A stretch of DNA of 64,000 bases from the human T2T-CHM13v2.0 reference genome, Homo sapiens. The position numbers were made by a program, and so were the translations under genes. The notes under the pieces were generated by a model, which had not been told where the DNA came from, made no database searches, and saw nothing but the letters and a program-made list of their open reading frames with translations. Numbering within the stretch: the stretch's first letter is position 1; the number at the start of each line of letters is the position of its first letter. The DNA lies in assembly GCF_009914755.1 (NCBI RefSeq), contig NC_060931.1. One strand, 5' to 3'. Shown here piece after piece: positions 57,904 to 57,923 of this stretch.

Positions 57904-57923
57904 GACACTGATGAATGGTGCTA
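57904..57923 (+). promoter_or_regulatory. Extended miR-29b site (NREP TDMD trigger) retained in the retrocopy 3'UTR
   Basis: GACACTGATGAATGGTGCTA pairs with miR-29b-3p (UAGCACCAUUUGAAAUCAGUGUU) at nt 1-11 (one G:U) and nt 15-23 (one G:U), with a 3-nt bulge in the miRNA. Confidence 0.85.

What the first reader, a model, noticed from the sequence alone, without database searches (positions are those of the whole stretch)
57904..57923. NREP retrocopy next to IGF2BP3 keeps an intact miR-29b degradation (TDMD) trigger
Seen: GACACTGATGAATGGTGCTA pairs with miR-29b-3p at nt 1-11 and 15-23 around a 3-nt bulge, inside a retrocopy that also keeps AATAAA. Established: this site architecture in the NREP 3'UTR (zebrafish libra lncRNA) directs miR-29b decay, and TDMD acts through ZSWIM8. 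Inference: if the + strand is transcribed when the oncofetal IGF2BP3 domain is open (embryo, tumours), this is a second, primate-derived TDMD trigger. It would couple IGF2BP3 locus activation to loss of miR-29b. I know of no description of this, but I cannot search the literature.
Basis: partly seen in the sequence, partly recalled or inferred. Interest (0 to 1): 0.85.

Follow-up and report, generated by a model that had tools for sequence, protein, structure and literature searches.

The report
NREP pseudogene keeping a miR-29b decay site
This is an ordinary, apparently silent processed pseudogene of NREP that happens to still carry the parent gene's miR-29b-destroying site, as do two other NREP retrocopies in this genome, and nothing found here shows that it is used.

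Summary
GACACTGATGAATGGTGCTA sits at 57904-57923 (+). It pairs with miR-29b-3p at nt 1-11 and 15-23 around a 3-nt miRNA bulge, at -26.9 kcal/mol against -7.8±2.5 for shuffles.

It lies in a processed NREP pseudogene (57008-58996, LOC389473). That copy was inserted into an Alu with an 11-bp target-site duplication.

The functional reading is not supported:
- The site is inherited, and its survival is at chance level. The copy has 65 differences in 1931 columns, so P(20-mer intact)=0.50. The undisturbed run holding it ranks 6 of 66.
- It is not a unique "second" trigger. The exact 20-mer occurs four times in the genome: NREP, chr7, chr8 and a chr5 retrocopy identical to the parent mRNA.
- RefSeq has no + strand transcript. 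No CpG island lies upstream, and 26 poly(A) hexamers lie between the IGF2BP3 start and the site.
- NREP knockdown alone matches ZSWIM8 loss for miR-29b in two breast cancer lines. miR-29b does not rise in ZSWIM8-knockout 293T or K562, and 293T cells hold IGF2BP3.

In print LOC389473 appears only as a THADA fusion site.

The parts
56891..57006 (+). 5' part of the host Alu (sense on +), cut by the insertion
   Evidence: Matches positions 4-117 of the neighbouring full Alu at 56470-56781 (87% over 116 nt).
56996..57006 (+). Left copy of the target-site duplication (AACCCCGTCTC)
   Evidence: Alu positions 107-117 occur on both sides of the insert. By my reading of the letters printed, 9 of 11 letters equal the right copy.
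57008..58979 (+). Processed (intronless) copy of NREP mRNA, annotated as LOC389473
   Evidence: Colinear with four NREP exons on chr5 joined at their GT/AG borders. There are 56 substitutions in 1908 aligned bases (2.94%) plus indels, making 65 events in 1931 columns.
57166..57372 (+). Open 68-codon NREP (P311) reading frame with 3 amino-acid changes (V9L, R38Y, P51L)
   Evidence: Translation. The four CDS base changes (57190, 57277, 57278, 57317) all change the protein.
57861..57936 (+). 76-nt block identical to the parent mRNA around the site
   Evidence: 43 nt to the left and 13 nt to the right of the 20-mer. The nearest copy-specific marks are 57846 A>C, 57847 G>A, a 3-nt deletion between 57860 and 57861, 57937 A>T and 57967 A>G.
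57904..57923 (+). miR-29b-3p degradation-type site (8mer seed match, 3-nt miRNA bulge, 9-bp 3' pairing)
   Evidence: It is identical to the site in the NREP 3'UTR at chr5:112240693-112240712 (-).
58955..58960 (+). AATAAA poly(A) signal inherited from NREP
   Evidence: Two further inherited AATAAA start at 58338 and 58548.
58980..58996 (+). Decayed poly(A) tail (15 A, 2 G)
   Evidence: It follows the last base that aligns to the parent mRNA.
58997..59122 (+). Right copy of the target-site duplication (58997-59007, AACTCTGTCTC) and the 3' part of the host Alu
   Evidence: Matches positions 107-232 of the full Alu at 56470-56781 (92% over 126 nt).

Best explanation
This is a dead-on-arrival processed pseudogene. 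An NREP mRNA was reverse-transcribed by the L1 machinery and inserted into an Alu roughly 10 kb upstream of IGF2BP3, some tens of millions of years ago. It brought no promoter with it. Since then it has drifted at about the neutral rate. The miR-29b site is simply a piece of the parent 3'UTR that has not yet been hit by a mutation. As a sequence it is competent: if it were placed in a stable cytoplasmic poly(A) RNA, it would most likely bind AGO-miR-29b and trigger ZSWIM8-dependent decay as NREP does. In the genome it is most likely not transcribed on the sense strand at a level that matters, so it has no effect on miR-29b.

Shown here: its identity, structure, pairing, copy number and neutral-looking divergence. 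Inferred: its silence, and its competence if it were expressed.
For: Retrocopy anatomy: the exons are joined at their splice borders, there is an A tail, an 11-bp target-site duplication, and the insert splits an Alu.

Neutral decay: 65 events in 1931 columns; 982 of 1912 20-column windows are untouched (0.51); the run holding the site is 78 columns long and ranks 6 of 66. All 4 CDS changes alter the protein. 42 private substitutions in 1850 ungapped columns compare with 10 columns where the parent (and chr5b) differs from both the chr7 and chr8 copies.

The same 20-mer is intact in two other retrocopies, so retention is common.

No sign of sense transcription: RefSeq has no + strand transcript and no promoter or CAGE feature between 51038 and 66796. 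There is no CpG island within 1.5 kb upstream. 26 poly(A) hexamers lie on the + strand between the IGF2BP3 start and the site. Rfam finds nothing in 46000-64000.

Published data: NREP CRISPRi is about equal to ZSWIM8 knockdown for miR-29b in two lines, and of three predicted targets only NREP was bound. miR-29b is not raised in ZSWIM8-knockout 293T or K562. HEK293T cells have endogenous IGF2BP3.
Against: I could not look at any expression data. Absence from RefSeq is weak evidence of silence.

The site, 43 nt upstream and 13 nt downstream are identical to a validated human trigger, and the poly(A) signal is intact. The sense strand points away from a CpG-island promoter that can fire both ways, and a second CpG-rich kilobase lies at 50001-51000 (GC 0.65, CpG o/e 0.82).

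Short reads and CLASH chimeras over the site cannot tell this copy from NREP: 14 of 31 50-mers spanning the 20-mer are identical to another copy. At least one CLASH resource discards pseudogenes. So published screens could have missed it.

In the chr8 copy the longest untouched run (221 columns, rank 1 of 53) holds the site. By my hand calculation from those numbers, the chance that some run is that long is about 0.1.
Confidence: 0.85

Rival explanations
1. When the IGF2BP3 domain opens (embryo, tumours), the + strand over the retrocopy is transcribed. The RNA then acts as a primate-specific TDMD trigger that lowers miR-29b through ZSWIM8.
For: The site architecture is fully intact and identical to NREP's. 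The 76-nt block around it is identical to the parent. AATAAA is kept. The sense strand runs away from the IGF2BP3 CpG-island promoter, so divergent transcription would be in the right direction.
Against: There is no annotated + strand RNA. The start is 10 kb away, with 26 poly(A) hexamers in between. Site survival is at chance level. Thirteen events lie within +/-200 nt of the site, and flanks of hundreds of nt mattered for the other triggers tested. A>T at 57937 lengthens a predicted hairpin over the site: P(3'-pairing part unpaired) falls from 0.0084 to 0.0012 (prediction only). miR-29b is not raised in ZSWIM8-knockout 293T or K562, and 293T at least holds IGF2BP3. NREP alone accounts for the ZSWIM8 effect in SUM159PT and BT-549.
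Confidence: 0.04
2. An occasional, context-bound effect. Read-through, a rearrangement or an ectopic enhancer in some tumours produces sense RNA over the copy, giving a small TDMD or sponge contribution on top of NREP.
For: The region is a recurrent rearrangement site. THADA-LOC389473 fusions are reported and are included in RNA fusion panels, and IGF2BP3 rises about 110-fold in fusion cases.
Against: By geometry, a THADA transcript entering chr7 at a breakpoint and running toward an intact IGF2BP3 reads the - strand, which is antisense to the site. This is my inference; the primary paper was not held. A breakpoint inside the copy would also split it. In the TCGA set none of six IGF2BP3-upstream breakpoints lay in LOC389473.
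Confidence: 0.07
3. A protein-coding retrogene. The open 68-codon frame is translated into a P311/NREP variant.
For: The frame 57166-57372 is open, with its start, its stop and 65 of 68 residues kept.
Against: All four base changes in the 204-nt CDS change the protein and none is silent. A 204-nt frame hit by four substitutions and no indel stays open most of the time by chance (my inference). There is no transcript. The chr8 copy is frameshifted.
Confidence: 0.02

Closest known systems
NREP 3'UTR / zebrafish libra miR-29b TDMD trigger (Bitetti et al. 2018, known to me from recall and from citing passages; human NREP validated in PMC13631368)
   Same: The identical 20-nt site and the identical 76-nt core. 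The same 8mer seed match, 3-nt miRNA bulge and 9-bp 3' pairing. The same preference for miR-29b over miR-29a and miR-29c by duplex energy.
   Different: It has no promoter of its own and no known transcript. There are 65 differences over the mRNA length and 13 within +/-200 nt of the site. There is no evidence of constraint. No functional test exists.
Processed pseudogenes that keep the parent's microRNA sites and are proposed as decoys (PTENP1 type; recalled, not read here)
   Same: A retrocopy of an mRNA whose 3'UTR sites survive, so the RNA could compete for or act on the same microRNA.
   Different: PTENP1 is transcribed, whereas here transcription is not shown. The site here would destroy the microRNA rather than only titrate it.
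The other NREP retrocopies of this genome: chr8 NREPP2 (54090011-54091875), chr5 LOC124906525 (158529316-158531246) and a chr4 fragment (37773966-37776088)
   Same: They come from the same parent. The exact 20-mer is present in the chr8 and chr5 copies.
   Different: The chr5 copy is 1931 of 1931 identical to the parent mRNA, with a long pure A tail and a perfect duplication, so it is far younger. The chr8 copy comes from another NREP isoform (an alternative first exon) and has a frameshifted ORF. The chr4 copy lacks the part that holds the site.
LOC389473 as the THADA fusion partner or breakpoint region upstream of IGF2BP3 in thyroid tumours (Panebianco et al. 2017, not held; seen through PMC7339451, PMC10405845 and PMC8752984)
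   Same: It is the same stretch of DNA, and this is the only role under which the locus appears in the searched literature.
   Different: That role is as DNA, a place where chromosomes join and enhancers are brought in. It has nothing to do with the NREP-derived RNA sequence or with miR-29b.

Membership tests
L1-mediated processed pseudogene (retrocopy) | Colinear with the spliced mRNA, with introns absent | tested here: met
   Four NREP exons from chr5, joined at their GT/AG borders, align end to end with 57008-58979.
L1-mediated processed pseudogene (retrocopy) | 3' poly(A) tail and flanking target-site duplication | tested here: met
   The A-rich tail is at 58980-58996. An 11-bp duplication (Alu positions 107-117) lies on both sides, with 9 of 11 letters alike.
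L1-mediated processed pseudogene (retrocopy) | Neutral-type decay relative to the parent | tested here: met
   2.94% substitutions plus indels. All 4 CDS changes are non-synonymous. There are 42 private changes against 10 on the parent side.
ZSWIM8-dependent TDMD trigger | Seed match plus a central bulge plus extensive pairing to the miRNA 3' end | tested here: met
   11 bp, a 3-nt bulge, then 9 bp, at -26.9 kcal/mol. The architecture is as described in the review passages.
ZSWIM8-dependent TDMD trigger | Favourable flanking context (hundreds of nt; accessible site) | tested here: inconclusive
   The core of 76 nt is identical, but 13 events lie within +/-200 nt. Predicted accessibility of the 20-mer is 3-fold lower than in the parent, 3.4e-5 against 1.1e-4. 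The need for flanks was shown for other triggers, not for NREP itself.
ZSWIM8-dependent TDMD trigger | The trigger RNA is expressed on the sense strand at a useful level | not testable with these tools
   No reads are available. RefSeq shows no + strand transcript, and no CpG island lies upstream.
ZSWIM8-dependent TDMD trigger | Loss of the site raises the miRNA post-transcriptionally, in a ZSWIM8-dependent way | not testable with these tools
   This needs a bench test. Indirect published data argue against a non-NREP miR-29b trigger in 293T, K562, SUM159PT and BT-549.
ZSWIM8-dependent TDMD trigger | The site is conserved beyond its surroundings | tested here: not met
   Tested against the parent only. 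P(intact)=0.50 and the run ranks 6 of 66. Primate orthologues could not be reached with these tools.
Expressed pseudogene decoy (PTENP1 type) | The pseudogene RNA is present in cells | not testable with these tools
   There is no expression data. No paper names an NREP pseudogene transcript.

The most novel reading that the evidence does not exclude
Human genomes carry up to three extra, exact copies of the NREP miR-29b degradation element. At least one of them is transcribed in some setting and adds to miR-29b decay without being noticed. Candidates are the chr7 copy beside oncofetal IGF2BP3 and the chr5:158.53 Mb copy, which is identical to the parent mRNA and looks very recent. It could go unnoticed because reads over the element cannot be told from NREP and pseudogenes are filtered out of CLASH catalogues.
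Probability: 0.05. Interest if true: 0.6.

Novelty: new member of a known kind. Interest (0 to 1): 0.2.

Why it matters
If the copy were expressed, it would be the first pseudogene-borne TDMD trigger, and a primate-specific link between an oncofetal locus and the tumour-suppressive miR-29b. On the evidence here it is an ordinary silent pseudogene.

Its practical importance is technical. Three near-identical or identical copies of the NREP element exist, so RNA-seq, eCLIP and CLASH reads over the miR-29b site are ambiguous. NREP-high samples can make LOC389473 look expressed, and the reverse. Only reads that reach 57937 or go back past 57861 can be assigned to the chr7 copy.

Tried and rejected
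1. A captured promoter at the chr8 copy. The 250 bp upstream are CpG-rich (GC 0.61, o/e 1.36). They turned out to be an alternative NREP first exon (chr5:112267929-112268065, 96% identity), so they are part of the retrocopy and not a local promoter.

2. NREPP1 on chr15. I fetched it, but blastn of the parent mRNA found no match at E<=1e-5, so I left it out.

3. Literature on NREP pseudogenes. The two 'NREPP2' hits are false; the text is Nrep^P2A reporter names. The search 'TDMD' + 'processed pseudogene' found 0 papers. 'pseudogene' + 'target-directed' + 'miRNA degradation' + 'trigger' found 21 papers. I opened one of them, which only says that pseudogenes are excluded. 'IGF2BP3' + 'miR-29b' + 'NREP' found 2 unrelated papers, judged from the listing only.

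4. Panebianco et al. 2017 (PMC5338560) is not held. The strand of the THADA fusion RNA is therefore my inference from geometry.

5. PMC6672051 gave nothing on IGF2BP3 in human K562. PMC10340223 added nothing on the locus.

6. Rfam over 46000-64000 gave no family.

7. The second-best duplex in the window (+62051, -22.1 kcal/mol) lies in Alu-like sequence and, by my reading of the printed letters, has no miR-29 seed match.

8. The eight 2-mismatch genome matches to the 20-mer are no more than the reversed-pattern control (7) and are chance.

9. The bacterial promoter/terminator scan was not used, because it does not apply to human DNA.

10. Primate orthologues, sequencing reads and supplementary tables could not be consulted. 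The TDMDfinder lists and Dataset EV3 of PMC13631368 may name pseudogene transcripts.

Full report
WHAT IS THERE. The 20 letters GACACTGATGAATGGTGCTA are at window 57904-57923 on the + strand. I did not rely on memory for the microRNA. I cut the MIR29B1, MIR29B2, MIR29A and MIR29C loci out of the same genome, and Rfam confirmed all four as mir-29 precursors (RF00074, 64.7-76.4 bits). I then read the 3p arm from them. RNAduplex pairs miR-29b-3p nt 1-11 (G:U at nt 11) and nt 15-23 (G:U at nt 23) with the site. Nt 12-14 are bulged opposite no target base. The energy is -26.9 kcal/mol. 2000 shuffles of the site gave -7.8 +/- 2.5 (best -18.4), and a perfect complement gives -35.7. It is the best of the 25588 30-mers tried on both strands of the window. 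miR-29a (-18.6) and miR-29c (-20.9) pair less well.

WHAT IT BELONGS TO. A genome-wide DNA search with 57054-58979 found the NREP gene on chr5, exon by exon, and further intronless copies on chr5 (158.53 Mb), chr8 (54.09 Mb) and chr4 (37.77 Mb, fragmented). I joined the four NREP exons at their GT/AG borders. The result aligns end to end with window 57008-58979. A decayed A tail follows at 58980-58996.

The insert splits a sense-strand Alu. 56891-57006 matches positions 4-117 of a neighbouring full Alu, and 58997-59122 matches positions 107-232. So 11 bp (Alu positions 107-117) are present on both sides: AACCCCGTCTC and AACTCTGTCTC, 9 of 11 alike. This is the signature of L1-mediated retroposition. 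Because the target was an Alu, the insertion happened in primates.

The copy lies 10.1 kb upstream of the IGF2BP3 start (46903, - strand) and points away from it. RefSeq lists it as LOC389473, 'chromosome 5 open reading frame 13 pseudogene', source 'Curated Genomic', with no transcript.

HOW DIVERGED. Against the parent mRNA the chr7 copy has 56 substitutions in 1908 aligned bases (2.94%) plus indels, which is 65 events in 1931 columns. Of the 1850 columns without gaps, 42 changes are private to chr7 and 33 are private to chr8. In 10 columns chr7 and chr8 agree against the parent, and 5 of those are at parental CpGs, where parallel decay in both pseudogenes is likely. At a neutral rate of about 1e-9 per site per year (recalled, rough), 2.3% private change means roughly 20-30 million years. 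I could not check primate orthologues.

The 68-codon NREP frame is still open (57166-57372) with V9L, R38Y and P51L. All four base changes in the CDS change the protein, which is what an unconstrained copy gives.

IS THE SITE KEPT BY SELECTION? No sign of it. With 65 events in 1931 columns, a given 20-mer is untouched with probability 0.50, and 982 of 1912 20-column windows are untouched. The untouched run that holds the site is 78 columns long and ranks 6 of 66; longer runs of 129, 93, 86, 83 and 82 columns lie elsewhere.

One result leans the other way. In the chr8 copy the longest untouched run (221 columns, rank 1 of 53) holds the site. By hand from those figures, the chance that some run is that long is about 0.1, so I do not count it as evidence.

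Around the chr7 site the identical block is 57861-57936. Within +/-200 nt there are 13 events. One of them, A>T at 57937, lengthens a predicted hairpin that covers the 5' half of the site. The predicted probability that the 9-nt 3'-pairing part is unpaired falls from 0.0084 (parent) to 0.0012. For the whole 20-mer it falls from 1.1e-4 to 3.4e-5. This is a prediction only.

IS IT 'A SECOND TRIGGER'? The exact 20-mer occurs four times in this assembly: NREP (chr5:112240693-112240712, -), chr5:158530170-158530189 (+), chr7 (this one) and chr8:54090800-54090819 (+). The eight 2-mismatch matches are no more than the reversed-pattern control, which gave 7.

The chr5:158.53 Mb copy (LOC124906525) is 1931 of 1931 identical to the parent mRNA. 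It has a long pure A tail and a perfect duplication of about 14 bp. It is therefore very young and a better-preserved candidate than chr7. The chr8 copy (NREPP2) derives from another isoform: its CpG-rich 5' end is an alternative NREP first exon. It is also frameshifted. The chr4 copy lacks the region with the site.

CAN THE SENSE STRAND BE TRANSCRIBED? I could not see reads. What the sequence and annotation show is this:
- There is no + strand RefSeq transcript, and no promoter or CAGE feature, between the last listed element (51038) and RPS2P32 (66796).
- The 1.5 kb upstream of the copy have GC 0.28-0.55 and CpG o/e at most 0.63.
- The nearest CpG-rich DNA is the IGF2BP3 promoter (45001-48000) and a separate kilobase at 50001-51000.
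- A transcript starting there on the + strand would meet 14 AATAAA and 12 ATTAAA before the site.
- The host Alu's own Pol III promoter faces into the copy, but a T5 run at about 57025-57029 would stop Pol III (read; my inference).

WHAT THE LITERATURE ADDS. I read passages only, through 'find', unless stated otherwise.

LOC389473 occurs in 9 held papers. In the four whose passages I read, it appears as a THADA fusion partner or breakpoint region upstream of IGF2BP3 in thyroid tumours. In the TCGA set none of six upstream breakpoints lay in it. A THADA transcript running into chr7 toward an intact IGF2BP3 reads the - strand, antisense to the site. This is my inference, since the primary paper was not held.

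Human NREP is a validated, ZSWIM8- and proteasome-dependent trigger for miR-29b. In SUM159PT and BT-549, promoter-targeted CRISPRi of NREP raised miR-29b about as much as ZSWIM8 knockdown. The authors call NREP 'the main (possibly only) trigger' (PMC13631368). CRISPRi at the NREP promoter does not touch the retrocopies, so little room is left for them in those cells.

Li et al. 2021 state that miR-29b is not significantly raised in ZSWIM8-knockout 293T and K562. [quoted passage not shown] HEK293T cells have endogenous IGF2BP3 protein and mRNA (PMC12808120, figure legend). For K562 I have only the title of a cited paper on IMP-3 in K562. So in 293T, a line where the IGF2BP3 locus is active, and by that title probably in K562, no ZSWIM8-dependent loss of miR-29b is reported. 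This goes against the proposed coupling.

One CLASH resource excludes pseudogenes from its targets. Many reads over the site are not assignable: of the k-mers that span the whole 20-mer, 6 of 6 25-mers, 14 of 17 36-mers, 14 of 31 50-mers, 2 of 56 75-mers and 0 of 81 100-mers are identical to another copy. Published screens therefore do not exclude a small contribution.

No held paper links TDMD with a processed pseudogene, or NREP pseudogenes with anything. Supplementary tables were closed.

VERDICT. The element is an ordinary processed pseudogene whose miR-29b site is a passive inheritance. It is one of three such retrocopies with the site intact, it shows no sign of selection, and nothing found here points to sense transcription. 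As a sequence it is probably a competent trigger if force-expressed (inference from identity to the validated NREP core). As a genomic element it most likely does nothing to miR-29b (confidence about 0.85).

The useful by-products are the list of copy-specific marks needed to assign reads, and the warning that NREP-derived reads can be mistaken for LOC389473 expression.

Noticed in passing
L002:1501-3431 (G000 chr5:158529316-158531246, +; LOC124906525): This NREP retrocopy is 1931 of 1931 identical to the spliced parent mRNA, with a long pure A tail and a perfect flanking duplication of about 14 bp. It is therefore a very recent insertion in this reference assembly. It carries the intact ORF and the intact miR-29b site.
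   Followed up: partly
L004:1355-1490 (G000 chr8, just upstream of NREPP2): The CpG-rich 5' end of the chr8 retrocopy (30 CpG in 250 bp, o/e 1.36) is an alternative NREP first exon (chr5:112267929-112268065). So the chr7 and chr8 copies come from different NREP isoforms. The CpGs are surprisingly well kept for an old pseudogene.
   Followed up: partly
L004 (chr8 copy), alignment columns 903-1123: In the chr8 copy the longest stretch without any difference from the parent (221 columns, rank 1 of 53) holds the miR-29b site. By a rough hand estimate this is not significant (about 0.1).
   Followed up: partly
window 50001-51000: This is a CpG-rich kilobase (GC 0.65, CpG o/e 0.82), separate from the IGF2BP3 promoter island and 3-4 kb upstream of the IGF2BP3 start. 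It overlaps RefSeq 'active region' and 'silent region' elements but no annotated transcript.
   Followed up: no
window 57937: The A>T change 14 nt downstream of the site makes TTTCATCA, which is complementary to the TGATGAA inside the site. It lengthens the predicted local hairpin.
   Followed up: partly
window 56891-57006 and 58997-59122: The retrocopy landed inside a sense-strand Alu. The Alu's internal Pol III promoter faces into the copy, but a T5 run at about 57025-57029 should end any such transcript.
   Followed up: no
window 27077-27141: A U7 snRNA pseudogene (RNU7-143P) lies in an IGF2BP3 intron on the opposite strand. I know it from the annotation only and did not examine it.
   Followed up: no
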